Part shown: positions 3,514 to 41,392 of the stretch, one piece after another | How the letters are laid out: every line of letters begins with the position of its first letter | Position numbering within the stretch: the stretch's first letter is position 1 | Program-made: the position numbers and the translations under genes | The notes under the pieces: model-generated | Told to the model about the DNA's origin: nothing | Seen by the model: only the letters and a program-made list of their open reading frames with translations | Databases searched by the model: none | Source of the DNA: Paraspadella gotoi | Lineage: Eukaryota > Animalia > Chaetognatha | Assembly: GCA_051294375.1 (NCBI GenBank) | Contig: CM119265.1 | Coordinates: 11,347,818-11,411,817 of the forward strand | DNA: 64,000 nt | Direction of reading: 5' to 3'

Positions 3514-3597
3514 GCGATGCAAATATCCTCTGTCAAGTCGGCTCTTACTCAAGAGATAAACGAGTTGAAGAAGGTCAAAATTGATTTGGAGACTCGG
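3514..3597 (+). CDS. TMF1: TMF1 coding exon 7 (located upstream of exons 5-6)
   Basis: Acceptor ttcgttgcAG. Coiled-coil AMQISSVKSALTQEINELKKVKIDLETR, phase 0 as needed after exon 6. Consensus donor G|GTAAGT. Confidence 0.8.
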
Positions 3598-3657
3598 GTA
3601 AGTCCCTCCTTTAATCGTGGTTGAAGTGGCTGCTAACTTCCCAATATTCTTTCCCAG

Positions 3658-3885
3658 GTCCAACAGTTGACGGGTAAGGTCGTCGACCTGGAGCAAAGTC
3701 GCAGGACCAGGTCACCGCCGCCTTCTCCTCGACGCTCGTCCACTCCTCGACCCCCCTCCTCTCCACCTCCTTCGATCCACTCTCTGGTCGCTGCCTCCTC
3801 AGCGCCCTCTCTCTATAGCGCCATCCGGGACTCAGGATCGTCCTCCTTGCAGTTTGAAGAGATGCAGAGTCAGCTCAAACAAAAG
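3658..3885 (+). CDS. TMF1: TMF1 coding exon 8 (runs into the C-terminal TMF TATA-binding region)
   Basis: Follows a 60-bp intron with a GCTAAC branch point and ttcccAG acceptor. Ends SLYSAIRDSGSSSLQFEEMQSQLKQK, resembling TMF1 NLYDAVRMGAGSSIIENLQSQLKLR. Donor AAG|GTCAGT. Confidence 0.85.
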
Positions 3886-4529
3886 GTCAGTTTTTGTAAA
3901 TCGCTTTTTTACCCCCCGAAAATTGTACAATTTTGGGCCGCTCCCTTTTTTTTTCAATTTTTTTTTTTTTCGTCTTTGTAACTTTTGCTACCTACTACGA
4001 GGATTTGTCTCTTACTTTTTCTACTATGAGCATTTTCCCTTAACTTTCTATAGAAATTTGCTCTTATGTCTGCACCCACTAGATCTTCACTTGCATCGCT
4101 TTACACAAAATGGCAAATTTTTGCCTGTTTTGGTCTTAATAAAACAGATGGCTCCACAAACAAAAGAGCATTTTTCTGAATTTTCACCATATTCTACGAG
4201 AGGGCTTTACAAAGCAGGAGGTCTTTTGTAAGACCAAGGAACATTCATTTGCTCTTCTGTCTGCACCCACTAGTTCTTCACTTGCACCTGCTCTTCAACA
4301 AAACATTTTTTTAAAAATAATTTTTTTTATATTTTTGCAAGTATTTTTTTCCTATTCTATGAAAATATGCAAAATTAACTGTTTTACTATTTATCGAGCC
4401 AGGACCGGCGTTGCCGGGTCCTGGCTCTATAATGTTTTAGAATTGCTTCTTTGTGACGTCGTCGTCGGCGGCGGCGGCGTCACGCAATTTTTATATAAAA
4501 ATCTTAAAAGCAATAGGGATCGAGCTTAC

Positions 4530-4690
4530 TTTTGATGATAACCAAATATTGATGCGATGATAACCAAATATTGATGCGATGATAACCAAATATTGATGCG
4601 ATGATAACCGAAGGATTGATGTGATGATAACCAAATGATGGATGCGATGATAGTCATTCATTGATGCGATGCTAGTCATTGACGTGATGA
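4530..4690. repeat. 22-bp minisatellite (GATGCGATGATAACCAAATATT), decaying
   Basis: About 7 tandem units are visible; a reverse-complement relative lies at ~60445-60500. Confidence 0.85.
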
Positions 4691-5136
4691 GTTAATTAGA
4701 GAGAGAGAGAGAGAGTGACTGAGAGAGAAATATAGAGAAAATAATAAAATAATAATAAAAGTTTTTAGAAGGAAAAAAATAAAAATCCACAAAAATCTCG
4801 GAAATAAATTTGGGATTTTGTATTAAGAAAAAAGTGGCGTGATAAAAATAAAATTGTTTTATTAGAGTGTGATTAAGCATCAATTAACTTTCTATTTTTT
4901 TTTTCAATTGAAATAAGACTGAAGTCTTTTGTTCATCTCGTTCAAAATGAGGTTGAAAACCTTATTTTTTTTCATATTATTGAAAATGAATGAGATTGAT
5001 ATTGATTGTATGAAATGAAAACTCGTCGCTATAAAGCTAAACTATTTTCAATAATAACGGTCAAAAAATTATAATCTCTATTAACTAGAAGAGTTTGAAA
5101 TGAATTTTCAACAACGATTTTATTTTTAATAAAAAA

Positions 5137-5178
5137 AACGGACATGTTTCGGCTTAACTCCAAGCCTTCATCAGCATT
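5137..5178 (-). ncRNA. Minimal type I hammerhead ribozyme inside a ~200-bp insertion (5086-5283) with a 13-bp TSD
   Basis: Minus strand reads AATG-CTGATGA-AGGCTT-GGAGTT-AAGCC-GAAA-CAT-GTC-CGTT. AATCTCTATTAAC is duplicated at 5073-5085 and 5284-5296. Confidence 0.85.
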
Positions 5179-5455
5179 AAAAAAGTTAGTGAATTTGAAA
5201 CAAATTATGTGCATAAAGAAAGAGTGAGAGAAAGAGAGAGAGGGCAAAGTTTCCAACACAGAGTTGAGAAAGGATTATACCACAATCTCTATTAACAAAA
5301 TATATAGTTGACAATAATCAGTTAACGACTATGATATTTTTTTTACTTATTCAAATAAATTTTATTTCCTCATCTTAAAAAAAATTTAATCTTGAATGAA
5401 ATTTTAGATTGTTATATTTTTATATATATTAATCCGCGCAATTGCCGGATATATA

Positions 5456-7187
5456 CAGTAGCATCCGTCTAGAATTTCTGAGACGGCAAGCTCTGTAACT
5501 CGAGTACAAATGATAATTTTAAAGAGCTTTTGTCTTGATATAGAGTACACATGTGGCTACTCCCCCTTCGGTAAGCCATTGCTCTATGACCAATTTTGGA
5601 ACATCACAACTTATTGTAAAAAGAAGCTTCAACCAGATTTGAACCTGAATCCTTTTCATAATGTTGAAATCCGGCGCGCTAAGCACTCGGCCAAATGATT
5701 TTCAAAAAAATTAGTACAAATTAAATTATATAAAGCTGTAGGTTCGCTTTTAATATTTGGGGGGAAACAAATATTCAACGTTTGAAGGCAGAGATTTTTA
5801 CATCCGAGTCCCAAGTTTCCCGATTCGTGACGGAACGTTGCAACGACGACGATTGATACGAAGAAGAAAGCGAATATCTGGCTTATTTTTAATGTTTGAA
5901 ATTGAGAAAAAGTCAAAGCTTCGACGTTGAACATTTTCACGTTGCTTTTAAGGTGTTTTATTAAGTGTTTTTAACGAGTTGCTTATTGTGAAACAACTGA
6001 AACTGTTTTTATACATGGTCGCCTATTGTATCAATAATAATAAATAGGCTAATTATTGAGAGAATGAAAGAATGAAATTGTTTCGAAAAAAGAATAATTT
6101 AAGTTTACGATTTGCAAAAAAACAATTTTGAGGAAACAATGTCGGATCTGCCTACAATAATTAAGCGGTAATAAGCTAATACGATGATAATTCTTGGTAA
6201 TGTTTTCTGACTTTCAATTTTTGATCTTAACAGATCATAACACGTTGTAACATAAACAAGTTTGAGCAAACAATGTCGGATCTGCCCACAATCATTAATG
6301 GTAATTAATTAATTAATAATTAATTTAAGTTAATTAATTAAGCAATTAATTATTTTGATCCAAAAGTTTGTTTTGATTGATTGACTGATTAATTATTTGA
6401 TTAATTAATACATCTTACATTTAATATAAAAAGGAAAAAGAAGCATAATCAATTAGTGAAATAGGTTCTCTGTTTTTTCCATTTAAACTCATTTCCACTC
6501 AAACGATTACATCGAAACTTGATTTCCAGCTTAATCACACACTTTTCTATCCAAATACAAAATTTCAAGTCAATTGCCCCATCCACTCCTGAGTAATTGG
6601 TGTTCAAATAGTAAAAAAAATTTTTCCATTTAAACTAGTTTCCACTTGGACGATTCCATCGAAACTTCATATCCAGCTCAATCACACACTTTCCTACCCA
6701 CACACAAAATTTCATTCCAATCCATCCATCCAATCACGAGTAATTGGTATTTTTTGCTTAGGTGGGATGGACGGACGGACAGACGGACATCGTTTTTTTT
6801 TGCATAATTTCTTATAATTCGATGTTCTGACATGATATAAGTGAATTTCCGACAAGATTGAGGGACTGAAAGTAGATCCGACTAAAAAGAAAAAAAAAAA
6901 CCACAATTTATATTGAGGTTTTTGAATTTTTTTTTTTAAATAACGAGATGGCCGAATGGTTAAAAACTAAGACTTCGACGCAGAATGGAATGGTAGGATT
7001 CAAATCCCACTCAAGGTAAAATTTTACAATAAACTGCTATGTCCCAAAAGTGGCCGTAGAGCTATGGCTTACCGAAGGGGGAGTAGCCATATGAGTACTC
7101 GATAACAAGACAAAAACTCTTTCAAATTATCATTTGTGCTCGAGTTACAGAGCTTGCCATCTCAGAAATTCTAGACGGATGCTACTT
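5456..7187. mobile_element. Tc1/mariner-type non-autonomous element with ~165-bp TIRs, flanked by TA, containing a nested HINE
   Basis: TA|CAGTAGCATCCGTCTAGAATTTCTGAGA... at the left end and its reverse complement ...TTCTAGACGGATGCTACTT|TA at the right end. Confidence 0.8.
6254..6888 (-). mobile_element. HINE/DINE-1-like element, near full length
   Basis: Sub-terminal inverted repeats GTCGGATCT...AGATCCGAC, (GTCC)n tract, 3' hairpin GTTTG-CT-CAAAC and terminal CTTGTT, with T-rich ends. Confidence 0.75.
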
Positions 7188-8611
7188 TATACATTTGTGA
7201 GATGTTGTCAGAATATGAATAAAATTTTAACAGTTTTATTAGCATTTACTAAGAGAAATATTTTAGATGTGTCATTTTTTTAATCAGTCATAACTATTAT
7301 ATTAGTGAATATTATGTTTTTATATTACCGTCTTAGATGGGCCTTCGGTAGCTCTACAACATGAGTTTTGGTTATCTCAAAAAAATATTTGTCACAGCTC
7401 AAAATTTTAATAACAAAATTCAATTGTCATTTATACCTAAAATATGCAGAGAACTGGATTTATTTTTTAACCATAAAATAGCCAAAGCATACCTTATCTG
7501 CTGGTAGTCTCAAAAATTTAAATTAAAATAAGCATAATCTCATTTACATATTTAAAGATTTTTCTACTTTACTAAATTTCTCCTTACTAGGTAAGTATTT
7601 TATTATTGTTTTAAGTGCACAACAATTACATTGTATAAGCTTTAACTTAAGATTATTTTGGAGAATTTTTAACTTTATTTTCAAATTGTTATTATTTTTA
7701 AAATGTTACTTTAAAAAAGGTATTTATTAATACTTTATCAAATTTCCATTTTTGTTATTATTATAAAAAGAGTTTAAGACAAGGATTCTAAATATATAAA
7801 TTTTTTGTAAATTAGATCTTCCAAGGCCGAGATATGGCATTTTGAAATTGTCAAAAAGAGAAAAAAATATCCCTTCAAACTCCAATAAAAAACTGTACAA
7901 TCAAAATATCTCCTTAATATTTTAAAGATTTTAGGTAATATTTTCATTCAAATTAACAATTTAACAGTCTTTAAGTTTCAGATCAGGTATCGCCTACCTG
8001 TCACACAAGTTGATGTACATGTGACATTGCCTGCATTATAAGTTATTCTTCCTTTTTTCTAAAATGAATCCACTAAAAAAAAAGAGATATATATATATAT
8101 ATAGAGAGAGAGAGAGCCGGAACTCGTTTAATCGTTTACTCGTCGCCTAGTGACGGTGGTGAAAAAAAAAATATAAAGTTAATTTATGCTTAATCACACA
8201 CTAACAAAACAATTTTATTTCTATCACGTAGACGAGAATCTCGCTTATAAAAAAATTCAACATTTTTCTAATAGAGAATTCCGTTCAANNNNNNNNNNNN
8301 NNNNNNNNNNNNNNNNNNNNNNNNNNNNNNNNNNNNNNNNNNNNNNNNNNNNNNNNNNNNNNNNNNNNNNNNNNNNNNNNNNNNNNNNNNNNNNNNNNNN
8401 NNNNNNNNNNNNNNNNNNNNNNNNNNNNNNNNNNNNNNNNNNNNNNNNNNNNNNNNNNNNNNNNNNNNNNNNNNNNNNNNNNNNNNNNNNNNNNNNNNNN
8501 NNNNNNNNNNNNNNNNNNNNNNNNNNNNNNNNNNNNNNNNNNNNNNNNNNNNNNNNNNNNNNNNNNNNNNNNNNNNNNNNNNNNNNNNNNNNNNNNNNNN
8601 NNNNNNNNATG

Positions 8612-9207: not shown

Positions 9208-9238
<31 letters not shown>

Positions 9239-11143
9239 AATTAAAGGGAAGAGTTTCCAACAAAGAATAAGGTAAGGGACAGTGGTCAGATGTGAGACAG
9301 CTGAAGGTGAGGAGAGGAAGAAGTAAGGTCTTGATGAACCTACAATTTTAGGTTGAGTGATCCCTGGCCTTAAAAAAAATTCAACATTTTTCTAATAGAG
9401 ATTTCCATTTGAATCTGACTGCCCAACTTTACAAACGAGCCTGCAAGAAATTCCGGTAGAAAACAGTTGTAAAAACACACTATTCCGATAGCTTTGCATC
9501 TCAAGAGTTCGTTCCTTTCTTCTTGTGGCATTTGATAAAGATTTTACTATCAAACAAGCCAGGGGAAATGGACTACTCGTCTCTGGAGGATTTTCATACC
9601 TCATTTTTACTATAGAAATGAAAGGGAAATTTAGCTTTTTTAAAATTATTAACGGGATTACGGTATATTAGCATTATAAATGATACTTCAAATTATGAGA
9701 TTCCAAAAGCCTTGTCCCTAGAGCTCGTTCTATTTTTCTTTTTATTATTGACCAATTTTTTCATATTAAACCAACATGGTAAAGTGAATTGGTCCAGTTT
9801 TCATCGCGAAATTTTTATTTAAAAAGAAATTAAAAGGAAGGTTAAGAGAAAAAAACTTATTTTTCCTAATATCTTTTGAAGGAACAAAGATAGAGGGATG
9901 GCAATAGTACCAAAATGAAGCCATAATCATAGGGCACATACAAGATTCAATTTTAGAATTACTTTTGCTGAAACCTCCTTACAGGGTGAGTGTCAAACCA
10001 AGTCAAAATTATAATGAATTTTAAAACTATTGACACCCCATAAGAATAAATGAAAATTTAATTCTTTTTAATGATTCTGAAAGAAAAAAGGCTAAATTGT
10101 ACTTTAGTAAAACTTTAAAGTTTTTTGGATAAAGAAAATGTAAATTTTTTGTCACTTAAATAATTGCTTGTCTGATTTTACAAGCGTGCTTACAAAATTT
10201 TACAAAATATTATTCACCCCATCACAGTCTAAGTATTTATCTTTCTTTTCCACCAGCAAAAAGTAAACATTATCTTATTTTAGAGAACAGGGACGTTTAC
10301 TGAAAGGAGCCAGAAGATGTTTAACTTCTTCACTTTAATCTTAGTTTTCAATAATAAAATAGGCGAATTTTTTAATTACTCAACTTTCACAGGCTTCACA
10401 AGACATTACACTTTCACAATATCCCAATGTTAATGTAATGTATTATATTTTTTTACCTAGAAATTACAAAAGATTAGAAAGTTGTGGATTCCTTTATCAA
10501 AATGTCTCTCTATTACATTTTTACAAATGTTTTTAAGATTGCTTATCAAATTTTTAAATCAATATTATTGCAGTCGTTTAGGCTGCAACTCTTCAAATTC
10601 AGTATTGATTCATTGTAGCTCAAATTTCTTTACCATCTATTTAACTGAAGATTTAGTTCATGACCGGAAAACCAACAGAGTAACAAGATTAATTGTTTAA
10701 TTCTCCCCTTCTAAATTATCCCTTACTGTGTTTTAACTTCTTACCTAGAATTTTTTAACAATCAGATTAAAAAACTAATCTTTAAAAAATGTGCTTACCC
10801 ATTTAACTTAACAATTTTTGTTATTTAAAAAAAATGATTGAAAACAGAATGTTTACACAAAAACGCGCTCATTAGAATCTCCCCCACCTTCTTTTCTTGC
10901 CTAAGATATTTTTTCTTCAAGAAGAGTCCAACGGTTTGAGCTGCAACTCTTCGTTTTTAACTTCACTTCGTCAAGAAAGTTAAATTCTAAACTCATTAAA
11001 CATTTACATAAAGTAAAAAGTCAAATTGAAATAAATTCGATAAGTTTTTTAACTCATAAAAATAAAAGTATAAAAACCCGTCTGGAAAATGTGTAGAGTA
11101 GTTTATTTTAGACTTATTAGTGATAAACCAAGTATGTATGTAT

Positions 11144-11742
11144 TAAGGCGTAGTGAAAGTTAATAGGAAAAATTCTAAAAGTCAATTATGAACAACATAC
11201 TATCAGTGAACATTAAATTGGTAAAAAAAAATTAATTTTATGTTTTTTAATTTTTTGCAGTAGGATATTATATATAGTACTATCCTTATAAATCGAAAAA
11301 TCTCAAAATGGGCTTTTCTTAATTTTGATTGCAGATTTGAATTCCTCGTCAAAAATTGATAAAAGAAAATATAAATCATTTTTTAAAATTCTTCATTAAG
11401 TGGGTTAAAAATTAAAAAAAAAACAATATTTAATATATAAAAGTTAATTTCAGCTAAAATATAGCTTTTTTAATTTTGACTCACTTAATGAAGGAATTTT
11501 TCAAAAGAGTTATATTTCTTTTATATCAACTTTTATGAACAAATCCAAATCTGCAAAAAATTGTAGAAAAACTGTTTTGAAATTTTAACATTTATTGGTT
11601 TAGTATTAGTATAAAATATGGCCTACTGCGTAAATTTTAAAATTTATTAATAAATTTTTTTATATATAAATGTTCATTATATAATATTGCGTTCTCATTA
11701 GAATTTTAATTAAAGTAAATTTAGAAATTTTACTACGCCTTA
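11144..11742. mobile_element. Palindromic MITE with TAAGGCGTAGT TIRs and a GTAT 4-bp TSD
   Basis: GTAT|TAAGGCGTAGT...ACTACGCCTTA|GTAT. The halves are diverged inverted repeats. An uninterrupted copy of the host repeat is seen at ~28960-29220. Confidence 0.8.
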
Positions 11743-12518
11743 GTATTATGTACCAAAGGAAGAATTAAATATAAGAAGTAGAAATTGAGCTTACTGTAAG
11801 AATCAGTTTTAAGTAAAAATTTAGTTGTAGAAATTTAGCTTACATTAAAAAAATATTTTTCTCTTGAAAATCTAGTTACCGAAGAAAAAATTTTAAATTT
11901 TATATGAACATTTTATGTAGATTTTAAAAGTTTTTCGATTATTTTTCAATAGAAAACCTCTTACAAGATATGAGAAAATGATTAAGATACAGTAAATTAA
12001 GATTTTTTGAAATTGAAAGGATAGATTTGAGAGATGAGTTAGTAAATGAGGCATGATCGATGAGGCCGGGTCATTGGCATGTCATAGGCTGAGATGACAG
12101 TTGGATTGAGCTTGTCATGGATGCGTCAGGAAGAGTTCCCTGCGGGAAGAGCCCAAGTGCTATTCGAATGTCTCTCTGGCCTGATACGCCTGCCGACTGC
12201 CCTCTTCTCGCCTGCTGGCGAGGCGGGCGGTTGTCCGTTCTTGCCGCTTTTGCGACAGGAGTGTCGGGCTCCTCTCCCTCCTCCTGTAGCCGCCGTTTTG
12301 GGCGGCGCTCATTCCACAGAGGAAGGGACTGAGTTGCTACATTTATATATCATAAATATATCACAATTTTAATTATATAAATATATTTTTAATATTAAAA
12401 TATATTATATATTATAATATAAAATAAATATTAATTATAATAAAAATATAAACTATATAATTTAAAGAATATATTATGAATATTTAATTTCTTAAATTTT
12501 AATTTTATATATAGTAAT

Positions 12519-12696
12519 GGAGCCGGAGTTGGAGCCGGAGCCGGAGCCGAGTTGAAATTTTTGCTGGAGCCGGAGCCGGAGCCGAAAAAAAATTTTGCTT
12601 GGAGCCGGAGCCGGAGCTGGAGCCGGAAAAAAATTTGGCCTGGAGCTGGAGCCGGAGCCGGAGCCGAGACAAAATTAGGTCGGCTCCACATCCCTG
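12519..12696 (+). mobile_element. Right end of a hAT-like MITE with (GGAGCC)n subterminal repeats
   Basis: Ends CGGCTCCACATCCCTG|GTTTAAAT and is followed by the 3' half of a HINE (12697-13165). Confidence 0.75.
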
Positions 12697-15209
12697 GTTT
12701 AAATGGAAAAAACTGAAAAACATATTTCACTATTTGAACACCAATTACTCATGAGTGGATGGGGAGATTGACTTAAAATTTTGTGTTTTGGTAGAAAAGT
12801 GTGTGATTAAACTGGAAATCAAGTTTCCATGGAATCGTTTGAGTGGAAATGGAAAAAAACAAATAACCTGTTTCATTAATTGATTATGCTTCTTTTTCTT
12901 TTTCTTTTAAATGTAAATGCAAGATGTATTAATTAATCAAATAATTAATCAGTTAATTAATCAATTAGTCAATTAATTAATCAATTATTAATAAATCTGT
13001 CAATTAATCAATCAAAACAAACATTTCGGATCAAATTGCCTAATTAATTAAATAATTAACTTGAATAAATTAATTATTAATTAATTATTAATTAATTAAT
13101 TATTAATTAATTAATTACCGATAATGATCGTGGGCAGATCCAACATTGTTTGCTCAAACTTGTTAAAAATTGATTCTGATAAAGATTAAAAAGTTAAATA
13201 AAAGTTAGTACTACAAATTTCAAAAAATTTAATGATAAATGGGTTAAAATTTGAAAAAAACTTTAAAGAATCATTAGCATCATTCATTAAATTTTATAGT
13301 TCTTGTTAATTTTCATAGATAAATCATTAAAATTTCAAAAAGTTGTATTAATAACCTTCATCTAACTTTTCAAGTTTTATCAGAATCCATTAAAAAATAT
13401 ATAAATTTATTAAAAAAATTTTTGACATTATATAGTATTCGGATAATATAAATTAGCTTCCATGCGTTTAACTAAAAGATATTTTAAATTTTTTTTGATT
13501 TTCACGATCTTTAATAAACACATTAACAATATTTATACCGGACTTCTGTTAGTTTGTAACCTGTTTCGCCCTAATAAGTATATTCTAAGATGTTCAGTGT
13601 AAACTATGAATGCGCATTTCATTAGTTTCATTTCATTAGTATCTTACTTGAAAGAATCTTGGCTTGACATCGGTGACTCGCGATGTAAACTATGTCTTTG
13701 ATATATGTATAGTTAGTAAGGCGGGCCAAAATTAATCTATTTATATAGTAATAAAATCATTTTAAATGCTTCCGTGCGCTAATCAATAAGATAAATTTTA
13801 AAAATTATTTTTATTTATTCAACAGTCATTTAACCATTATTTATTTGAGAGAACTTCTAGTTTTCAACCTGTTCCGGCCTAATAGTAGGAGTAGCCTAGC
13901 GAAAATTTAAACATTTTTTTAAAAATTTGAATGGACAAAAAAATTTAATATTACTCCATACTAACTAATTTTTTGCTGNNNNNNNNNNAAAGCTGCCTGT
14001 TCCAAAAATCAGGAATCCATTACATCAAAAGTGACATATATAGATAGAGCAATAAAAAACGAATCGAATGGTGGTCACCTATGATTTGTAGCTTTAAAGC
14101 TAGTTAAGAAAAATGTGTTTATTGTCAATGCTGATTTTAAATGAGGACTTGAGCTTTCCCCTTTATTCATCTGAAGCTGTCATTTGGGTTGACGACTTTT
14201 CTGAGGAGAGTCAAAGTTAGTTTCGACAGGTGATTAGAGGGCATTGGTTGCTTATTGCCTTTCCAGAGGTCTCCCTCTGTCTCAGCGAGCGGAGACGGGG
14301 GAGTCATTGTGCGTCCGTGGTGGTTGGTATCATCTACCACCATGATTTAGAGAAGGTTCAAAGGTTCAAGAGATTGACTTTTTCTTTATTCACTTTTTTA
14401 TTTTTTTTTGTTTTTAAATTGAGTTTGAAATAAAGATGTAGTCTTTTACAACAACGATTACATTTAATGTTTTTTTATAATGTCTTTACACCATATTTAT
14501 CTATTATAACAATATATATTGGTATTATTGATTTAGGTATCTGACATAAAATAAAATGAAAGTTCATCAGCCATATTAACATCAAAGTTAAAGTAAAAAA
14601 GCTTGCGCGTCTGCATAATTAAACAATATCTAATAACTAAATAAAATATTTAAATTAAACTTTTAAAATAAATGATAAAAAAGAACATGTAACATATCTA
14701 GCGAATTTATAAAATTAGTTCGTAGCTTTAGAACTAATATTTAGCTGTTTTTGGTAACTTCCAGTTTGTAAAAGTAGTTTTTCAACATAATAAGCACCTA
14801 AAACTATTTTTTTAATATATTAACTAACTTGCAATGCAATATTCTAGTCAGGAATGAACTAATTATATTAGAAAATTAAATTTAAATAGAACTTGTTCAT
14901 GAAATCTACGAATATATGTGAATTTTGACGCTCGTGACACTTGGGCGCTCCTGGGAAGGGCCAAGAATTTTAAAAAGTCTAACAAAAGTCATATATTCAG
15001 ATAGAACGGAAAAAAAGGAAAAGAATGCCGTTCTCCTGAGATTTCTATTTTAAAAAAAATCGGATTTAAATGTGTCTCCTCCATAGTATGGAGTTCATAC
15101 CCCATATATTAATTTTTTAATATTTATTTATAAATAGAATAGGCTAAACATTTTTTTTGGATTTTTTTATTTTTAAGATAAGATTCAGGTAGCTTGCAAA
15201 AGTTGTCTA

Positions 15210-15568
15210 CGGAGGCGTGGGTTCGAATCTCACCGCTGCCACCACAAATAAGTAAATAGACAGGGATTTCGAGACGAAATCAAAGTGGATTTTATTTCTT
15301 CAGAAAATAGACAATAATACAAGACGGTGTCAATTTTCGGGCAGAATGAATCAGTACAGGTTTTGGTTCCCTTTTATATAGTGCAAACGGATCGGAGGTA
15401 AGGGTAAAAAATCCTTGGCAGAAGGAAGCCCATCTGACCATTGGCCGGTGCCATTTGTTGCCTCGACCAATGAGAATGTTCCATTCTGGTTCCGGGTTTT
15501 TCTGGTTCCTGGTTTTCCCCGAGTCGCTGATCCGATTTCGACTTTGGGGTTCTGATTCCTCTGCGATG
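15210..15568 (-). mobile_element. LTR-like fragment ending in 35 nt copied from the tRNA-Leu 3' end, including CCA
   Basis: Plus strand 15210-15244 is CGGAGGCGTGGGTTCGAATCTCACCGCTGCCACCA. The minus strand has TATATAAAAG (15380-15371) then AATAAA (15296-15291). It interrupts a repeat whose empty site is at ~28590-28620. Confidence 0.65.
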
Positions 15569-15633
15569 ATATAATTCTTTTTTCAATATTTTTATCATAA
15601 GTGGGTAAAACAAAAGAACACTATTTATAATCA

Positions 15634-16331
15634 TAGGAGTAAGCTCTGACGAAAAAAGTCTGAGGTTTTTTTAATATATTCTTTTACCGGCCATTGTAGA
15701 ATGATAGCAATATTGCTATTGTTAAGTTTAAAAAAACCCGACGATAAATATAGAAAATATTAACCAAAATCTTCAGAAAATCCACCCCTTCTTTGGAAGA
15801 TTTTCGCCATAGAAGATTTTTCCCGAATCTGAATCCCGGTTGAAAACTCTTAGAATTCCGATCGTTAGCTCCTCTTTTACTTTTACTTTAAATAAAAATT
15901 TCACCAAACTTTACCATGATCGTATCATATTAAAATAACTAAATAAAATGTAAAGAAAAATTTTGAGAGCCCTTCAGACATATGGCAATCGGATTCCTGA
16001 ATTTGAAGTTTATTGTAAAATGACAACATACCTTAAATGTATTGAAGTTGAGAAATGCCTTTATTTTATAAATAAAAATTGCGTCAAAAATATTTTCCTG
16101 AGCGGACCAGTCCATTTTAATTGGATGGTTTGATGTCAAAATGATTGTTATTTATCAAGAGAAAAAAAATGCGAGCCCTTCAGATGTAACAGGATCAGAA
16201 TCGAGTGTTTTTACATCTATTTTTTACCTGAATTTTTCCCAGGGGCGTTGACATTGTTTGGTAGTCAGATTTTAACGAAAATCTCCATTGAAAAAGTCTT
16301 CCTCGATTTCTAAGAACGACGTAGACTCCTA
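15634..16331. mobile_element. 698-bp non-autonomous DNA element with 7-bp TIRs and a 7-bp TSD
   Basis: ATAATCA|TAGGAGT...ACTCCTA|ATAATCA. A second copy is split between 23828-24514 and 21281-21317. Confidence 0.85.
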
Positions 16332-21158: not shown

Positions 21159-21406
21159 CAGTGCAAAATCTTTACATTGTGTAATGTATAACAATAAGAA
21201 AAAATTTTTTAAACTGATGAATATTAGTGAAGTATAACAATTAATCTACTTAATAATTAGTGAGAGTGAAACAGGAAAAAAATCTTCCTCGATTTCTAAG
21301 AACGACGTAGACTCCTATGCGAGTTGAAATAAAATATTATTAATGCCGCAGTAACAGGGGAATATGAACCTATTGACTGAATCTACATTGCGATATTTTT
21401 TTTCAG

Positions 21407-21508: not shown

Positions 21509-21576
21509 GTAGGCACCTGACAGTTTGGTTGCCAAGATTGCCACAAAATTATATTCTTTTTTATTTTACTTTTAAG

Positions 21577-21999: not shown

Positions 22000-22031
<32 letters not shown>

Positions 22032-29497: not shown

Positions 29498-32400
29498 GTA
29501 TTTTTTTCTTCAAGAAGAGTCCTGTGCGTTTGAGCTGCAATCTTCGTTTTTAACTTCACTTCGCTCAAGAAGTTAAATTCTGTACTCGTTACTTTGCAAG
29601 ATTCACCACAACATACACAAGCACGGGATGTGATGACGGAGTTTTGTTCACGCGATGTCTTAAAAAAATGGATCTCTCTCTAAACGGTAAGGCGGTTTCT
29701 CATGAAATTTGACATGAATTATCTTTAGGTAACGAACTCCAATTCTATGAAAAGATACTTTGAAAATTTGTCTTCCTTCATAGAAAATTTGATTATTTTA
29801 GTCAATTTTTGGGATTAATTCCTTAATATCTTTTAAACGAAAAACATTTTTCCAAAAACGTGCTCATAGAATCTCCCCCACCTTTCCTTTCTTGCCCAAT
29901 ANNNNNNNNNNNNNNNNNNNNNNNNNAAGCCGAGCTCGGATTTCGAAATGAGAGAACTTCCTGACGATTCCGCAAAATGTATTTACTTTACTTTTTTTCA
30001 ATATGGCGTGCATTCGTTGTTTTCGATTTTTTTTTATTATTATATAAAATAAAAGAACCTATTTGAAGGTTAGCAGCCCAAACGGTAAGGCCGGTTTCTC
30101 ATGAAAATTTGACTATGAATTATCTTCTAGGTAACAACTCCAATTCTATTTTGAAAATTACTTTCGAAAATTTGTCTTCCTTCATAGAAAATTTGATTAT
30201 TTAGTCATTTCTTTGGGATTAATTCCTTTATATTATCTTTTAAACGAAAAACATTTTTTCCAAAAACGTGCTCATAGGAATCTCCCACCTTTCCTTTCTT
30301 GCCCAATAGTATTTTTTTCTTCAAGAAGAGTCCTGTGCGTTTGAGCTGCAATCTTCGTTTTTAACTTCACTTCGCTCAAGAAGTTAAATTCTGTACTCGT
30401 TACTTTGCAAGATTCACCACAACATACACAAGCACGGGATGTGATGACGGAGTTTTGTTCACGCGATGTCTTAAAAAAATGGATCTCTCTCTGTAGCTCT
30501 CTCTCTCTTTTCCCCAGTTGCTGATTCATCGGGGAAAAAAACGAGTCGGCAGCTGCTTCTGCTCTGCTTCGGCTCTGCAGGGGCTTTCTTTCTTTTTCTC
30601 TTTTCTCCTGCTGCTTCTGCTGCTGCCTTTTGATTTTTCTTTTTTTCTGTCCGCCTCTGCTGCTGCCGCTGCTGATTCGTCCGAAAATGATTTGACAATG
30701 AAAATTTGGTTTTTTTTGGGTTTTTTTTTCAGAAACTGTAACTTTAATTTTCCTCGGTTTTTTATTATTTTTTTAATTGACACCCGAAAAATAAATTTTT
30801 TCTTTGTTTATAAATTAATTTTCTTTTTTCAAATTAGATTTCTTTTTTAGTATCAAAATTCGTTATCAATCCAGATTTTTCTGATGCGATTGCGATTGCT
30901 TTTAAGATTTTTTTCCAGATTTTTGTAAATCGCTTCAGGTTCCGCTTACAAACGTTGCATTTAGGTAAAAAACATCGTTCAGTTGTTACTTAAAATGTTG
31001 ATTAACTTTGTACCACAACACAAATTGGGCCGAACTAAGGTTTGGTTAGAAACATCACCCGTTTCTAATGATAAAAGAGTACCATTTTGGCAACTTTTAG
31101 GGAAAAAAATTATGTCCATTTTTACTTACGACTTCTGATTTGAATGCCAAGGAAAGTTGAAAAAAATGTTTTACTTTGGAAATCCGTTCTTCCTTATCTT
31201 CTTTACCCTTGGGTAAATTTATTTGCTTAAATCATTTATAGTTTGCCGACAATGTTTTAAATAAACAACCAGTCTGGGTGTCATTCTGTTCTTTTTTCCA
31301 AGCTCTTTTTAACTAAAAAAGTTTTATATAAAAAAAAAAAAATTTGCCCGAGCCAGGGGTGTTAAGGTCCGGGATCACTTAATTCAAATTATAATTAGGC
31401 TNNNNNNNNNNNNNNNNNNNNNNNNNTTTTTTCTTTTTGGATATAATAAGAGAACCATACTTCCGTCACTTGATGTCGTCAAGTTACTAGTTAATATGCG
31501 TTTTGGGATTCCAAATCTGTTTTTAAAATTGACCTATGGAGACGGCGCATTAGACGCGATATGCCTATTTAAGCAAGTTGTTTGGTTTTGGTTCCACTCT
31601 AAATGTTTTGCTATCTGGCCGAAGTCAAGTTTGGCTTATAAAAAAATTGATTTTCTTTGTATACTTTCCTTGAACAAAAAAGACCCTACGAATATGATGA
31701 TCGATGAGGACTGTGGTATCTATATTAAAGCTCTTGCATAATTATGCTTTGTTATGAGGTTTCATCTATTCCATATAGATTTAAGCATGTTTTACAAAGA
31801 TCTTCGTTGGAAAACATCTGTTATACGTCTTGTAGTCGATGAAAGTATATAACAACTTGAAATTTAAATTAAACACCACTTGGCCATCATTAAGAAAAAA
31901 TAAATTGAGTCTATAATTACTGACAAAGAGAAAAGATCTTGAATCTATGATATTTCTGATTTAAAATAGAAATTTCCTATTACCTCAATGTTATATAAGG
32001 ATAAATAATATTATCATTTCGTTGAAAATAGCGAAAATCCAAATTTAAAAATTTCATCGTAAGGAAATCCGTTAAGGAAAACATCATGATCTATAAATAT
32101 GTACTCACATTTATGGAGTTTTAAACTTTGTTCCCCCATGCACTTTAAACAACATGACTGAACATCAGGGCTAAAAAGACAGACTGTATTATTCAGATTT
32201 TTACAAACTTTCTTAAAGATTAATAGTCGTGTGGTTTCCTAGAGCGAGGGCTGGCTCCAGCGAAAAAAATTATTTTCACAATTTTTTTTTGTATCTGTTA
32301 TGTCCATAATGCATATTCATAGACAATGAATTTTAATCATCATAAGTCGCAGTATCCATCTAGCGGCCAAAGTATACTGACACGATTCGTCATCGTACCA

Positions 32401-34733: not shown

Positions 34734-36310
34734 ATTGTATGTTATTGGTGTATCAGTTAGCTATTATTTGAAAAAAAATTTATTTAAATTATCATAAGAC
34801 TGAAAATACAATATTATAAAAAAATATATTGCTACTGTATGCAAATGAGTTTTAAGAAAGCTGTATTTGGTTTTACCACTGGTTTAGGCAACCCCTCCCG
34901 GTTATATCACCATAATATAAGAGTATTTACTACCATATTTTTTTATAGTATGCAAATTAATTTTTTGACCCAAAAAATGCCCATTCACTATTTTTTTTTT
35001 AAAGTGGCTCAAACTCTTATGGGGAATAAACCACCCTCAGGTCTAACCCGTATTCGATTTTCAGCTGATTTAAAGCATTTACAAAAAAGTTACAGCCTCC
35101 CTGGACTTTTCCAGGTTCTTCAAAACCGATACTGTATATGGTCTTTTCATACAATTGAAACATTCTTTGAAATATTATACCACTTCATTGATAGGGAAGC
35201 CAGGTTCACTGGGAGTGAATAAATAAGACTGTGAGAGAGTCTTGATTGAAAGCTTGCAGAAACCTGCTATGTTATTATCTTGTAAGTGTGATGGAGGCCT
35301 TAAACCACCAAAGCCTGTCCAAAGCCAGGGACAAGATAGCTTATTTATTTATTAAATGAATGGATAATTTTTATATTGGTTGTACCAATTTCATAGTTAA
35401 TAGATATCCGGCGCCGTTTGTTTTTATCTCGCCTCTTCTTCTTTGTGACTGTCGTCGTGGCGTCGTCGTCACGCTTCATTACCATCGCAAATTGCAAAAG
35501 TGTGTAAAAGGCTCTCCAGTGTCCAGCTTCTCTCTATTTCTCTCTCTTTCTCTCTCTCTTTTAATTATATGTTGCTTTCTCTCTTTTTTTCGGTTGCTGC
35601 TTTTTCTGATTCGTCTAAAAACGAGTTCAGCTCTGCAGCGGCTATCCAGCGTCTGTCCAGCTTCTCTTTTTTTTTCTCTCTTTCTCTCTCACACTCGCAT
35701 GTTTTATTTACGATGAATGAATGACTATCATTGATAGGGACGTCTGGCGTCCGAGATAAAAATTAGTGAATAAAAAAGTTGTTATTTTACTCACTGAATA
35801 AAAATACTTAAAATACTTACAAAATACATAAAATTGATAAAATTATTATTGCGAAAACATTGTTTAATCAAATGCATTTTTTTTTAGTGCCTTTTTTTTT
35901 ATTGAAATCGATAGATATTAACTAAATATATTAGAATTAAGGGAGGCTGTAACTTTTTTGTAAATGCTGGAAATCAGCTGAAATCGAATACGGGTTAGAC
36001 CTGAGGGAGGTTTATTCCCCATAAGAGTTTGAGCCACTTTAAAAAAAAATAGTGAATGGGCATTTTTTGGACAAAAAATTAATTTGCATACTGTAAAAAA
36101 AGTATGGTAGTAAATACTCTTATATTATGGTGATATAACCGGGAGGGGTTGCCTAAACCAGGGTAAAACAAAATGATCAAATACAGCTTTGTTAAAACTC
36201 ATTGCATACAGTAGCAATATATTTTATATAATATTGTATTTCAGTTTTATGATAATTTTAAAAAAATTTATTTCAAATAATAGCTAACTGATACACCAAT
36301 AACATACAAT
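34734..36310. mobile_element. Fold-back element with ~370-bp inverted arms
   Basis: 34734-35101 is the near-perfect reverse complement of 35940-36310. Confidence 0.85.
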
Positions 36311-37866
36311 GAATAAAATAGAATATTTGTTATTCTTTAATCCAAAATTAATTTTCAACAAAATATCAAAATATGCATTTTTTTGAACAAATGTTTTTTT
36401 AAAATAGTAATTATGCAACCAACTGTCCTCGGTGCACTGATTACAAATAATAATTTTTTTTTAAATAACGACTACTATATTATAAAATATAACCCTTCAA
36501 AACCTTAAAAAATACAGAAAAACACCCTTTAATTCAACTTTAATAAAAACCGTTCCAATGATATTTCATCTCTCATACTTTAAACATATCAAGGAGAACC
36601 ATCAGGTTTATTGTGTGAAAGTTATAGATAATTTTCGATAAGGAATGACTGCACAGGAAGGCGAAAATAGATGGATGAACACATATCAGCTTGTAATTGA
36701 ATAATGTACTCTTGCTTAATAAGGCGGTTGGTTGGCATAATTATTATTTTTAAAAAACATTGTTCAAAAAATACATATTTTGATATTTTGTTGAAAATTA
36801 ATTTTGGATTAAAGAATAACAAATATTCTATTTTATTTAATTTTCTTTTCTCAAATTTGATTTTTTTTTATTATCAAAATTTGTCGTCAATCAAAATTTT
36901 TGTTATGCAATTGCGACGATCCTTATGCTTTTAAGATTTTTTATTTCGAGGTAATATTGATAAAAATATTTAATATTTTTAAAAATTCACATATAAATAT
37001 AATTTATAAAAGGTAAATAATCATTCATATATGTATAATTAACTATATAATAAATGATTTTAGTCTAAAATCGTTTTATTCCTAAAAACAACAGTTATTT
37101 TTTTAACCGAAAGTGATACGCCACATAAAATGGCGTGGAAAGTCCTTAAATCTTTACCTGAGAAATTTTTTATTGTCATATTCTTTTTTTTCACTAAATT
37201 TGGAATAAGAAACTTTTACAAGAACCAACAACTTTTCTAAAGTAAGATATTTTTGGGAGCCCTTCAATGTAATTATGATTTGATATAATAATTATCTTTC
37301 TACCCAAAAGAAATTTCGACAGCTTTCACCTCAAATGTACATCAGGAACGAGTGAATCATGCAAATTCTTTTTGGTCTGGATACAATTTTGTTTTAACAC
37401 GTAGTATCCTACTTTTTCTCCCGACGATTTTTCCTTTTTTCGATTTAATGATTTATCATCCTACTTTTTCGCAATATATTTAAATTTTTTGTATCAAGTT
37501 TTTATCGATACAGATTATACGTTATAGTATTTATACATTATGCATTTTCTTACCATTATCGCGGAATTTTTAAAAGCGATTTCCGTTTAATAAAGAGAAT
37601 AAATGATACATACTACATAGTGATATGTAGCGTTAAATCTAGTAGGGAAATTTCTGGATTTTAGAGTTTCTGTAATTTCGTTTTCTTACATGGTTGCCAT
37701 CGTTTTATAGGAAAAGTTTTGTTTTTATCATGTTACTACAGACCGTTAATTTTTAACATTTTAATATTATTATTTTTAATATTTTTATGAATTTTTAGTC
37801 TTGTTCATGATTTTTTAGTAATTTAAAAATGGCCCACCACTCTAAACTAAAACTCTTTCCGTTTTA

Positions 37867-39779
37867 ATGAGTTGGTTTGACTCGGCGGGTCTGGCGGGAT
37901 TCGCCAAGACCGCTCTCACATCTGCGCAGAAGAAGATCGACAAAGTTTTAGACATTGAAGAGGACGATGCGTCCGCGACGTCCAAGGCCTCCGCCACTTC
38001 ACGACGCGTCTCCAGCGGTGGAGGCGGCGGCGGTTTCGGACCCTACAGCTTTTACGATGCCGCGAAAACGACGCCGGCTTCGTTGAATGCCGACGATGAC
38101 GTCGGTGACTGGGGCTCGCAGAGCACTCTGTGGAGTTCTTGGTTCGACTTTGGCAAAGACCCCTCTACCTCGGAGGCCGACAAGAAAAATATGGAGAAAC
38201 CGGAAGCCTTGAATCGAAGCGACGTCGTGGCGGCGCAACCGCCGATCGGAAGATCCTCCGAATTGGCGAAAGGCCCTTCCCTAGTTTTAACCGGGGAATC
38301 TCGATTAAGCTCCAACAGTTTCTTCGTCGAAGAGGATGTTCAGGAGCCGCTTTCTCACAAAGACGACGACGACAACGACAACGATTCGAAAGTCTCTACC
38401 TCCAGCGTCAAGGTTTCTCGTCCTCCAGAGACGAGGAAACCGAAGTCGAGACCCAAAAACTTGGGTCTACGAAAGAGTCGAGAGGACGAATCAGGTTCAT
38501 CTTCCAGCGTCCAAAACGTCAATGTCGCCAAGATGGTGACCAGCGACGACCTTTCGTTAGTATTTTATGAACGTCCGCCGACGGACTCGCATGGTGAACC
38601 GATCGTCGAACTCCCGACTTTGCCTACCCAGCCCATCGGAGCTTCCCGCGACGACGACGGGCTCGTCGATCCTCGTGCCTCTGCTCAAAGCCTACTTTCT
38701 CCGTCCACTACCTCCAACGACTTTTCCCCCTTCATCGCCGAATCCTCTCTCTCCGCCTCTCAATCCTCCGCCGCCCTCTCCGCTTCAGTCTGTTGGGAAG
38801 TCTCTGCCGACGATGCGGAAGTCGACGCCATCTTGCGGAAGAACGACTCCGAGACGGACTTGACGCCGTTTTCGTCCGCGATCCAAACGCCGCGCGGAAC
38901 TTGCGAGGCCTTTCCCGAGTCTCAACTGGGAAAGCCGCCGCACGTCGATCAAACCGTCTCCAGGGAGGCGCCGCCGGAAAACCCGTCTTGCGACTCGGTG
39001 GATTTGACTCTGACTCTGACGCGGTCGTCGAAGGAAAAGTTGACTGACAGTTCGACGACCGAGAGCACCATCGAACCGGAGGAGGATGCGGAAGAGAAGG
39101 GAGAGGAAGAGCAGGAGGATAAACAGGAGGATAAACAGGAGGGGAAAGGAGTGGAAGAAGAAGAGGAAGATGTTTCTTTGTCGTCCACCAAGGAGGCTGC
39201 TTCTCCACTTTCGACACCCAAACGCCCTCTTCCGGCATCGAGCGCCGATTCTCCGAAAATGACCACGGGCGTCGCCTCCGTCGTTCGCGACCTTCTAGGC
39301 GACGCCATGACGGAAAGCCTGCGGGCATCATCGGCCTCGTCCGAAGGCGTCTCGACCAGAACCAGAACGACTTTTGATTCCGGGGACGTCGACGGCGAAG
39401 AATCTTCAGACGCCGACGGTGCGGCCGCGTCAGAACTGCGCGAATCCGGCCGCGGCAGCTGCGCAATCGGCAGCGCCGAATGGATCAGTGGCTACGCCTC
39501 TAGCGACGATCATCACACGCCCGGTGGCGCCACCAGCGACGAACGTGAGGAGACAGGTACGTCGAGCGACATTGAGATCATCTCGAATCCCTCTTGCCTC
39601 GACGGCGAGGCTCCGCCCTCTCGCTTCGACGCCTCTTCGCCGCTCCGCAGTTTTCACGGGAGCATCGACGCTTCTGACGTCATTTTTCACCATCAGAGTT
39701 TGATGCAGCTGCAGCAGCGGAGGGAACATCGACGGACGCCCAGTCAGTCGAGCAGCGAACTTAAAATTGAGACTGCTAG
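37867..39779 (+). CDS. TMF1: TMF1 coding exon 1 (conserved N-terminus plus long acidic/Ser-rich disordered region)
   Basis: ORF starts MSWFDSAGLAGFAKTALTSAQKKIDKVLDIEED, closely resembling the vertebrate TMF1 N-terminus (MSWFNASQLSSFAKQALSQAQKSIDRVLDI). Contains a TSSDIEII motif. GC-rich exon. Donor AG|GTGATA at 39779/39780 (phase 2), just before the in-frame TGA. Confidence 0.93.
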
Positions 39780-39860
39780 GTGATAATGAAGTTGTGTTTG
39801 AGACCTGAGATCGATCACTTTCCAATATCAACTTATCAACTCTCCATTCATTTGCTCCAG

Positions 39861-40530
39861 AGCGGCGACCTCAACCGGCAGCGATGACTCTCCCTTCGAG
39901 AGTCCTCACCTCGCTGAGTTTGACGGAGACGTCGAGGACGAGGCGGAGGGCGAGCGAGAAAGGAGCGCCGCTCTTGTCCGCCAACGCCTCCAGCGCCTCC
40001 ACGACGAAGAGACCGCCGCGTCGACGCGGCAACGCCCCCAACGGTACGCCGAGCTGAGCGGCGAAGACGACGCCGGAAACAAAACGCCGCGCGCTTCTCG
40101 CAGCCGCAAGTCGTCGGACCGGTATCCCTCGGTGACGCAGGGCGGCGGCGAAGACGACGAAGCGGTCGCTTACGAAAAAAACGAAGTCGTCAACGAGCTG
40201 ATCCAAAAAATGAACGCGATGGCAGAAGTGATTCAAGCCAGGGAGACCAACGCCTTTGAACTCAGCAAGATGAATGCCGAGTTGACGGAGACGGCGACGA
40301 ATTTAAGACAGCAACTGGCGCAGGCTGTTGCTGCGCGCGACGCCGCCCACAACGACGCCTCCCAGATGAAGGACGAGTTTGCCAGACGTCTGGGCGAGTT
40401 GGAGCACAAGTTGCGCTCCACGGCGCAGGATCGCGACGCCGTCAAACGAGATCTCAATCAGGCGTTGAAGGATCTGCAGGCCAACGCCGCGTTGGAAGCT
40501 ATCGTCAAGGAAAAGGAGGACCTGGTGCAG
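39861..40530 (+). CDS. TMF1: TMF1 coding exon 2 (start of coiled coil)
   Basis: Acceptor tttgctccAG ends at 39860 and the phase fits exon 1. Open through ...EVIQARETNAFELSKMNAEL...KDEFARRLGELEHKLR...KEKEDLVQ. Donor CAG|GTATGA. Confidence 0.92.
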
Positions 40531-40605
40531 GTATGAGAATTTTCATAATGTATAAATTGGTTAAAGGGGTTAATCGTTTATTATTATTGATCCTATTTTC
40601 TCCAG

Positions 40606-40908
40606 GAACTGATGACGGAAGGCACGAAACTCTCGCAACAACTCGGCTCCGCCAACACGGCCCTGCGCAAACTCCGCGCCAAGGAGAAAGAGTCGGAAGT
40701 CGTCTTGACCAAGAAGAAGGAGCGGGTGGAGACGAGCGAGCGTCGAGTCGCGGAGCTCGAGGCCGAGCAGGAGGAGCTTAAGAGGAGCGAGAAATCGAGG
40801 ATTAGCCAGTTGGAGCAGATGGAGGAGCGGTGCAAGTTGCTTGAGTCGGAATTGCTTGAGGCACGGTCTAAGATTGAGGACGACGAGGCCAAGATAGGAT
40901 CCCTCAAG
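40606..40908 (+). CDS. TMF1: TMF1 coding exon 3 (TMF DNA-binding-type coiled-coil region)
   Basis: Acceptor ttttctccAG. ELMTEGTKLSQQLGSANTALRKLRAKEKE resembles TMF1 LMEEGEKLSKQQLHNSNIIKKLRAKDKE. Phase 0/0, donor AAG|GTTTGT. Confidence 0.93.
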
Positions 40909-41026
40909 GTTTGTTAGTATTTTCTTGAGATATAAGTTGCTAGTTATGGTATTTATTTTATTTTTTATTATTGAATTCTTTTAATTTATATTCTAATTGG
41001 ATACGTTCTTTCAATTTGCTCGAAAG

Positions 41027-41392
41027 GTATCTCTGGAAGCTGCAAACCGCGAGATCGTTTCCCTCAAAGCCCATGTTCTCGAATGCGACTCTCTCGTCGC
41101 CGAAGCGGAGGGCCGCTCCGAACGCGAGACGCGCCGGGCAATGGCGCGCGAGTTCGAACGAGCCCAGGAAACGCTGCTGGCTGAGCGGGACGCCCTCGCC
41201 GCTTCCTTAGAGGACCTACGAGTGTACGTGGGACGTCACGAGCGCGACCAGGCTCGGCGCGAGGACGTCCTCAGGCAGGAGATCGCCGGTCTTCAGCAGC
41301 GACTTCAAGAGGCCGACATTCGAAACCAGGAGTTGGTCGAGTCAATGGGCGGAGCCACTTTGCCGTTGCTGAGGCAGATCGAAAGTCTGAAG
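41027..41392 (+). CDS. TMF1: TMF1 coding exon 4
   Basis: VSLEAANREI...RREDVLRQEIAGLQQRLQEADIRNQELVESMGGATLPLLRQIESLK resembles TMF1 RLQEAENRNQELSQSVSSTTRPLLRQIENLQ. Phase 0/0, donor AAG|GTTAGA. Confidence 0.93.

What the first reader, a model, noticed from the sequence alone, without database searches (positions are those of the whole stretch)
3514..41392. TMF1 exon groups lie in reverse order on the same strand (7-8, then 5-6, then 1-4)
Seen in sequence: eight exons with intact GT-AG sites and compatible phases join into one open TMF1 frame only if read 37.9-41.4 kb, then 21.4-21.7 kb, then 3.5-3.9 kb. No exon is duplicated, and none shows decay. Established knowledge: cis-splicing cannot join a downstream donor to an upstream acceptor in a linear mRNA. 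Inference: either the assembly has segments in the right order but each flipped (most parsimonious, given N-gaps between the groups), or the locus is truly scrambled and needs trans-splicing or DNA unscrambling, or it is a recently broken copy. Prediction: the missing C-terminal exon(s) lie to the left of position 1 on the + strand.
Basis: partly seen in the sequence, partly recalled or inferred. Interest (0 to 1): 0.88.

Follow-up and report, generated by a model that had tools for sequence, protein, structure and literature searches.

The report
Assembly error reverses TMF1 exon blocks
The exon groups of an ordinary Golgi-protein gene (TMF1) do lie in reverse order in this sequence, but so do the halves of about a dozen neighbouring repeats, several cut exactly at assembly gaps, so this is most likely a genome-assembly error and not a scrambled gene.

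Summary
Observation confirmed: eight intact TMF1 exons lie on the + strand as groups 7-8, 5-6, 1-4; two relatives' proteins fix the true order; no exon is duplicated; the last ~98 residues are outside the window. The reversal is not specific to TMF1. At 12 places a repeat copy stops at one base and resumes further LEFT on the same strand, mostly with no N and 0-1 shared bases. Four of these ends are the last base before an N gap and two starts the first base after one; six joints interlock as a right-to-left list of pieces predicts. Short-read contigs of 4 of 4 runs carry the backward joint 61 bases behind exon 4 (as a high-copy repeat form). The piece holding exons 1-4 matches reads exactly; its neighbour carries unsupported bases and one-base gaps, like a long-read gap fill. 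A spliced contig runs 262 letters past exon 4 (exons 5+6 = 261). Most likely contigs, fills and gaps were written in reversed order without reverse-complementing. No long reads were available, so this is inferred. The scan had not noted it elsewhere. Useful only as a quality warning for this genome.

The parts
37867..39779 (+). TMF1 exon 1 (starts MSWF, the golgin vesicle-capture motif)
   Evidence: spliced contig; motif from PMC5267433 passages
39861..40530 (+). TMF1 exon 2
   Evidence: intron skips of 81 and 75 bases, GT..AG, in X9
40606..40908 (+). TMF1 exon 3 (part of Pfam TMF_DNA_bd)
   Evidence: PF12329 E 1.2e-07, 32 bits, below the 35-bit cut-off as a single exon
41027..41392 (+). TMF1 exon 4
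   Evidence: 66-71% identity to P0001/P0002; intron skip of 118 bases
21407..21508 (+). TMF1 exon 5
21577..21735 (+). TMF1 exon 6
3514..3597 (+). TMF1 exon 7
3658..3885 (+). TMF1 exon 8 (ends at the start of TMF_TATA_bd; the rest is outside the window)
36943..41453 (+). Inferred accurate short-read piece holding exons 1-4; ends 38 bases inside a high-copy repeat
   Evidence: contigs 37187-41444 (X1), 37187-41443 (X2), 37792-41443 (X3), 36964-37214 (X2) with 0 other letters
35941..36942 (+). Inferred error-prone gap-fill piece that follows exon 4's piece in the true order (joint 41453 to 35941; its own end continues at 33614)
   Evidence: joint in 4 of 4 runs, one-base gaps and unsupported bases
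21281..26421 (+). Chain of interlocking backward joints next to exons 5-6: 26421 to 25025, 26350 to 24512, 24511 to 21281
28265..31426 (+). Three backward joints whose ends are the last base before an N gap: 29228 to 28265, 29901 to 29498, 31401 to 29927
10858..16791 (+). Backward joint 16791 to 10858, between the exon 5-6 and exon 7-8 groups
755..8288 (+). Backward joint 8288 to 755 around exons 7-8; 8288 is the last base before a 320-N gap
   Evidence: two reference copies of the repeat
45135..54653 (-). Ty3/gypsy-like LTR retroelement region: two partial copies whose three shared blocks lie in opposite order on the same strand, with no N
   Evidence: (Asp_protease_2, RT_RNaseH)

Best explanation
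TMF1 here is most likely an ordinary, collinear, cis-spliced golgin gene whose exon groups stand in reverse order in this sequence because the assembly likely wrote this scaffold's pieces (short-read contigs, long-read gap fills and N gaps) from right to left without reverse-complementing them, which is the same as flipping every piece in place. Shown: the reversed exon order; twelve repeat copies that stop and resume leftward; their coincidence with N-gap edges; the accuracy step between neighbouring pieces. Inferred: that the pieces are contigs and fills, that the true order is the reversed list (giving an intron 4 of about 13.3 kb and an intron 6 of up to about 18 kb), and that the last exon(s) lie left of position 1 on the + strand. 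Which program did it is a guess: a PBJelly-type gap filler fits the 25-N gaps and the error level, but I found no report of such a fault.
For: (1) Twelve hand-curated backward joints; for the ten outside the retroelement, each scored with at least one reference copy, the jumped form scores 77-134 against at most 34-75 for the assembled context. (2) 4 of 12 ends are the last base before an N gap (4 of the 5 gaps of 25 N or more) and 2 of 12 starts the first base after one; N edges exist only in the assembly. (3) No joint spans more than one known cut, 6 of 12 span exactly one, and of 6624 possible pairings within 10 kb only the observed one is all-backward with at most one cut inside (the cuts come from the same joints, so this tests pairing, not existence). 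(4) Reads: joint 41452 to 35940 in 4 of 4 runs; single-copy contigs of 3 of 3 DNA runs stop at 41443-41444, inside the repeat; loose ends at 41453 (X1) and 35940 (X3) read as the jumped neighbour. (5) 37187-41444 has 0 other letters over 4258 bases, while 35941-36942 shows 12 listed one- or two-base gaps and several bases carried by no contig of X1 or X2; repeat pairs differ mainly by one-base gaps, e.g. 68 of 87 gaps on one side of one pair; gap fillers give 88-97% identity (PMC8848313 passages). (6) A spliced contig (3577 letters, depth 225) joins exons 1-4 and runs 262 letters further; exons 5+6 are 261 bases, and only exon 5 among exons 5-8 starts with a base other than G, as the alignment stop at 41392 requires. 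(7) 0-1 shared bases on either side at 8 of 9 joints tested, 4 at one.
Against: No long read or PCR spans an intron: the short-read contigs break in repeats. The joint seen in reads has 20 to 98 times single-copy depth in the DNA runs, so it is the repeat family's common form, not proof for this locus. Only 27 bases beyond 41453 were laid (the tool counts a bridge from 31) and 4612 pieces were not shown, so absence of the assembled adjacency is not shown; two table-5c rows place single-copy-depth contigs on low-complexity bases up to 41476 and I could not resolve them. X1-X3 are flagged as possible sources of the assembly. The 262 letters were not printed, and the 6|7 junction was not tested in RNA. 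A mechanical filter passed 23 of 41 candidate jumps, 18 backward and 5 forward (p 0.011, rows not independent); 3 of my 12 did not pass it and 9 backward passes were left out as internal sub-repeats or as having a reference copy that itself sits on a break. 6 of 12 joints contain no cut known from another joint. 3 of 16 cuts lie within 4 bases of GATC (0.021 expected per cut), unexplained.
Confidence: 0.94

Rival explanations
1. The locus is truly permuted in the chromosome and the mRNA is built by genic trans-splicing of three separate transcripts (exons 1-4, 5-6, 7-8), as at Drosophila mod(mdg4).
For: Exons are intact and a spliced contig has the length expected for 4-5-6. An earlier AI note calls this genome an arrow worm (e1-10588163, not tested here), a phylum with spliced-leader trans-splicing and operons (PMC2481426 passages). 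Genic trans-splicing exists in flies (PMC13490949, PMC4387717, search listing and abstract starts).
Against: It does not explain why unrelated repeats show the same reversal, why 4 joint ends and 2 starts sit on N-gap edges, or why sequence accuracy changes at piece borders. Spliced-leader trans-splicing adds a 5' leader; it does not join internal exons.
Confidence: 0.02
2. Germline scrambling with programmed DNA unscrambling, as in Oxytricha.
For: Segments in permuted order on one strand resemble scrambled MDSs.
Against: Pointers (2-20 bp repeats at the end of segment n and the start of n+1; PMC9797194 passages) are absent at 8 of 9 joints; no eliminated spacers between pieces; cuts fall in repeats and on N gaps.
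Confidence: 0.005
3. A simpler scaffolding fault: a few whole contigs or Hi-C bins placed in the right order but misoriented (mate-pair orientation error, or bin flips of a Hi-C scaffolder).
For: N gaps separate the three exon groups; instaGRAAL flips single bins or restriction fragments (PMC7386250 passages); 3 of 16 cuts are near GATC.
Against: Most breaks have no N, 13 of 16 cuts are not near GATC and 0-2 of 16 near five other sites; pieces are as short as 71 bases; every curated joint points the same way, which random flips would not give.
Confidence: 0.025
4. A recently broken copy (tandem triplication with loss, or serial template switching), with an intact TMF1 elsewhere.
For: Tandem duplication with random loss can reorder blocks on one strand (recalled, not from a call).
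Against: No remnant of any exon elsewhere in the window; exon region at single-copy depth with 0 differences in three DNA runs of two samples; no decay. The rest of the genome could not be searched.
Confidence: 0.01

Closest known systems
TMF1 / ARA160 golgin (Pfam TMF_DNA_bd PF12329, TMF_TATA_bd PF12325)
   Same: N-terminal MSWF motif, long disordered N-terminal part, coiled coil with TMF_DNA_bd; 43-71% identity by segment to two full-length relatives that carry both Pfam families
   Different: The C-terminal ~98 residues (most of TMF_TATA_bd; the Golgi-targeting Rab6-binding end by PMC5267433) are outside the window; exon groups are reversed in this assembly
Long-read gap filling of a short-read draft (PBJelly type)
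   Same: Runs of 25 or more N treated as gaps, shorter runs not; fills and flank extensions spliced between contigs (PMC3504050 section 5); fill identity about 88-95% (PMC8848313 passages). Here: two 25-N gaps, joints on 4 of 5 gaps of 25 N or more and not on the 10-N run, error-rich pieces beside exact ones
   Different: Neither paper's passages describe pieces written in reversed order; the program used here is not known
Drosophila mod(mdg4)/lola genic trans-splicing
   Same: Would join exons that are not collinear on one strand
   Different: There common exons join many alternative 3' exons with their own promoters (abstract starts); here one constitutive gene, and the flanking repeats are reversed too
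Oxytricha scrambled genes
   Same: Gene segments in permuted order
   Different: No pointers, no eliminated spacers, cuts on assembly gaps

Membership tests
TMF1 golgin | N-terminal M-S-W-F/L motif | tested here: met
   exon 1 begins MSWFDS; motif in PMC5267433 passages
TMF1 golgin | TMF_DNA_bd domain in the coiled coil | tested here: met
   PF12329 E 1.2e-07 on exon 3 alone, 32 bits against a cut-off of 35, profile positions 16-72 of 74; P0001 passes at 41.7 bits, P0002 does not at 31.2
TMF1 golgin | C-terminal TMF_TATA_bd domain | tested here: inconclusive
   only its first residues are in exon 8; the last 98-99 residues of the relatives have no match in the window; present in both relatives
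Ciliate-type scrambled gene | Pointer repeats of 2 bp or more at segment n end and n+1 start | tested here: not met
   0-1 shared bases on either side at 8 of 9 joints, 4 A at one
Ciliate-type scrambled gene | Two genome versions (germline scrambled, soma ordered) | not testable with these tools
   only short-read contigs of unlabelled samples
Genic trans-splicing locus (mod(mdg4) type) | Non-collinear exon order in real genomic DNA | tested here: inconclusive
   reads favour the backward joint behind exon 4 but cannot span the introns; window structure argues against
Genic trans-splicing locus (mod(mdg4) type) | Separate transcripts and promoters for the exon groups | not tested
   no raw RNA reads held; contigs cannot show starts
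Piece-order assembly fault | Breaks on assembly constructs (N-gap edges, accurate/error-prone borders) | tested here: met
   4 ends and 2 starts on gap edges; accuracy step near 36942
Piece-order assembly fault | Same reversal in all sequence, not one gene; joints consistent with one reversed list | tested here: met
   12 joints, none spanning more than one known cut; 18 of 23 filter passes backward
Piece-order assembly fault | Raw long reads contradict the assembled adjacencies | not testable with these tools
   all 11 listed runs are kept as contigs
Hi-C bin flips | Cuts at restriction sites | tested here: not met
   13 of 16 cuts not within 4 bases of GATC

The most novel reading that the evidence does not exclude
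An animal (an arrow worm by an earlier unchecked note) carries a truly permuted, single-copy housekeeping gene inside a chromosome region where DNA blocks have been serially re-ordered, and rebuilds its mRNA by two obligatory trans-splicing steps between internal exons.
Probability: 0.02. Interest if true: 0.9.

Novelty: not a real feature. Interest (0 to 1): 0.08.

Why it matters
As biology it does not: TMF1 is a well-known golgin and the odd layout is most likely man-made. As quality control it does: a scaffold written as reversed pieces keeps every exon intact and on the right strand but moves upstream exons downstream whenever an intron holds a filled gap. That mimics scrambled genes, trans-splicing, missing 5' ends and odd exon arrays, and breaks gene models. 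Other findings on this genome that rest on exon order or on a front end 'not yet found' (such as e1-10588509) should be checked for the same backward joints. The test used here (a repeat copy that stops and resumes leftward at an exact base) needs only the assembly.

Tried and rejected
No whole genome is held, so the missing exons and a second TMF1 copy could not be sought outside the window. No run is on record as RNA ('no RNA holder listed'); X9 is a guess, though it shows three GT..AG skips. A search with exon 8 for longer proteins gave 1 protein (P0003, 53% identity, a relative's single-exon fragment), not this species' C-terminus; the exon 4 search gave 2 proteins of 3900 candidates, neither from this species. 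A base-by-base jump scan was swamped by one-base indels and was replaced by HSP pairs. Candidate jumps dropped: those inside one repeat family with an internal ~150-base duplication (17061 to 12697 was not exact), those whose reference copy sits on a break (29681, 36310, 48669), microsatellite edges; forward jumps 11138 to 11749 and 19421 to 19713 look like ordinary hairpin-element insertions. A predicted link 25024 to 23828 and several others could not be checked for lack of a second repeat copy. My note's idea that 37-40-base repeat stubs at piece ends mark a k-mer overlap is untested. Paper searches (listings and abstract starts only) showed no report of a reversed-piece fault or of a scrambled animal housekeeping gene; passages of PMC6240028, PMC6733440 and 10.1101/2022.08.07.503107 held nothing on it. 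No supplements were read. Look-ups of earlier findings for this pattern gave 0 and 1 unrelated note.

Full report
Observation. The window is AT-rich, repeat-rich animal DNA with six N runs (320, 10, 269, 25, 25, 100). TMF1 is the only cellular gene I recognised. Its eight exons lie on + at 37867-41392 (1-4), 21407-21735 (5-6) and 3514-3885 (7-8), with AG/GT ends and open frames. Two full-length relatives, P0001 and P0002 (both with TMF_TATA_bd), tile these exons in the order 1-4, 5-6, 7-8; P0001 leaves no residue out at either junction, P0002 has 4-5 extra residues at 6|7. No exon has a second copy and the last 98-99 residues are not in the window. All junctions after exon 2 are phase 0, so homology, not phase, fixes the order.

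The reversal is general. Self-comparison shows repeat copies that match a reference copy up to one base and then continue elsewhere. Ten such joints outside the retroelement were checked base by base: 8288 to 755, 16791 to 10858, 24511 to 21281, 26350 to 24512, 26421 to 25025, 29228 to 28265, 29901 to 29498, 31401 to 29927, 36942 to 33614, 41453 to 35941. Each goes leftward on the same strand; seven fit best with no shift, and three (26350, 29228, 36942) fit within 3-5 bases, in A- or T-runs or diverged copies. Two more lie in a Ty3/gypsy-like element at 45-55 kb, whose two partial copies carry three shared blocks in opposite order with no N. A mechanical filter on all 41 candidate jumps under 10 kb passed 23, of which 18 go back and 5 forward (p 0.011, rows not independent); 9 of my 12 are among them, 3 failed it, and 9 other backward passes I dropped as internal sub-repeats or as resting on a reference copy that is itself broken.

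The joints fit one model. If a scaffold's pieces are listed right to left but each is read left to right, every true joint runs from the end of one piece to the start of its left neighbour and spans exactly one cut. None of the 12 spans more than one known cut, 6 span exactly one supplied by another joint, and 24511|24512 is found as an end and as a start. Of 6624 ways to pair the same ends and starts within 10 kb, 8 are all backward and only the observed one also meets the cut rule (the cuts derive from the joints, so this tests the pairing only). Four ends are the last base before an N gap, covering 4 of the 5 gaps of 25 N or more, and two starts are the first base after one. Listing the pieces right to left by coordinates puts exons 1 to 8 in order, with an intron 4 near 13.3 kb.

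Reads. Nine runs hold the exon 1-4 stretch, all kept as short-read contigs, eight flagged as possible sources of the assembly. Four were laid on 35720-41480. The joint 41452 to 35940 appears in all four (3, 4, 6 and 2 contigs). Its depth is 20-98 times single copy in the DNA runs, so it shows the repeat's normal form; single-copy contigs in all three DNA runs match with 0 differences and stop at 41443-41444, about 30 bases into that repeat, so exon 4 is followed by the repeat whose continuation the assembly puts 5.5 kb to the left. Loose ends at 41453 and 35940 read as the jumped neighbour. The piece 35941-36942 carries 12 listed short gaps and several bases found in no contig of X1 or X2, while 36964-41444 is exact: the contrast expected between a long-read fill and a short-read contig. 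Repeat pairs elsewhere also differ mostly by one-base gaps. Limits: only 27 bases past 41453 were laid, the tables were cut, and two rows on low-complexity bases up to 41476 are unresolved, so the assembled adjacency is not strictly excluded. In X9 one contig (3577 letters, depth 225 against about 31 for unspliced DNA) splices exons 1-4 at GT..AG and runs 262 letters on; exons 5+6 are 261 bases and the next base is G in both intron 6 and exon 7, where a contig would branch; exon 5 alone begins with a base that stops the alignment at 41392. The letters were not shown, so 4-5-6 in mRNA is inferred from length.

Mechanism. Most likely an ordinary cis-spliced gene, with contigs, fills and gaps written in reversed order without reverse-complementing. 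PBJelly treats 25 or more N as a gap and splices fills and flank extensions between contigs (PMC3504050, section 5 read; passages), and such fills reach about 88-95% identity (PMC8848313, passages); that fits, but the program is unknown and my searches (listings only) showed no report of this fault. Hi-C bin flips (PMC7386250, passages) should cut at restriction sites; 13 of 16 cuts are not near GATC, though 3 are, above the 0.021 expected per cut.

Rivals. Trans-splicing earns a look because an earlier unchecked note calls this genome an arrow worm (e1-10588163), a phylum with spliced leaders and operons (PMC2481426, passages), and flies trans-splice mod(mdg4) (listing). It cannot explain reversed repeats, gap-edge cuts or accuracy steps. 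Ciliate-type unscrambling needs pointers (PMC9797194, passages); 8 of 9 joints tested share 0-1 base on either side. A broken copy would leave remnants or decay; none was found in the window, but the rest of the genome was not searchable.

Verdict. TMF1 is a known golgin (PMC5267433, passages). Interest 0.08, mainly as a warning for other exon-order findings on this genome.

Noticed in passing
window 45135-54653: Ty3/gypsy-like LTR retroelement on the - strand (aspartyl protease, RT, RNase H by Pfam), in two partial copies 93-95% alike with many one-base gaps; their shared blocks lie in opposite order.
   Followed up: partly
A spliced leader is possible if this is an arrow worm, but no AG lies directly before 37833 (nearest at 37817-37818); an allele difference near the 37759-37824 tandem repeat is as likely. 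Letters not shown.
   Followed up: partly
window 29498-29681 and 30309-30492: 184 bases 100% identical on both sides of a 25-N gap; in the reversed order this looks like sequence extended into a gap from both sides (an overfilled gap).
   Followed up: partly
window 22369-23828: Satellite of about 77 copies of a 19-base unit, 630 bases behind exon 6; related short arrays at 715-754 (ending at a piece border) and 58055-58110.
   Followed up: no
window 28265, 45.8 kb and 49.9 kb: 3 of 16 piece borders lie within 4 bases of GATC (0.021 expected per cut); could be a trace of an earlier restriction-fragment scaffolding step, or chance.
   Followed up: partly
window 62014-62424: 136-residue frame on + with a weak C2H2 zinc-finger match (E 0.036); possibly an exon of a neighbouring gene or a transposon fragment.
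   Followed up: no
window 8636-8988, 11222-11664, 13168-13391, 18976-19674: Several long imperfect palindromes and nested inverted-repeat pairs (4838/8228, 5449/7194), like hairpin or MITE-type DNA transposons.
   Followed up: no
window 43009-43700: GC-rich stretch with overlapping frames of 154-224 residues; the one frame scanned had no Pfam match.
   Followed up: partly
same genome, other pieces: Earlier notes on exon arrays with a missing front end (e1-10588509) may be touched by the same piece reversal.
   Followed up: no
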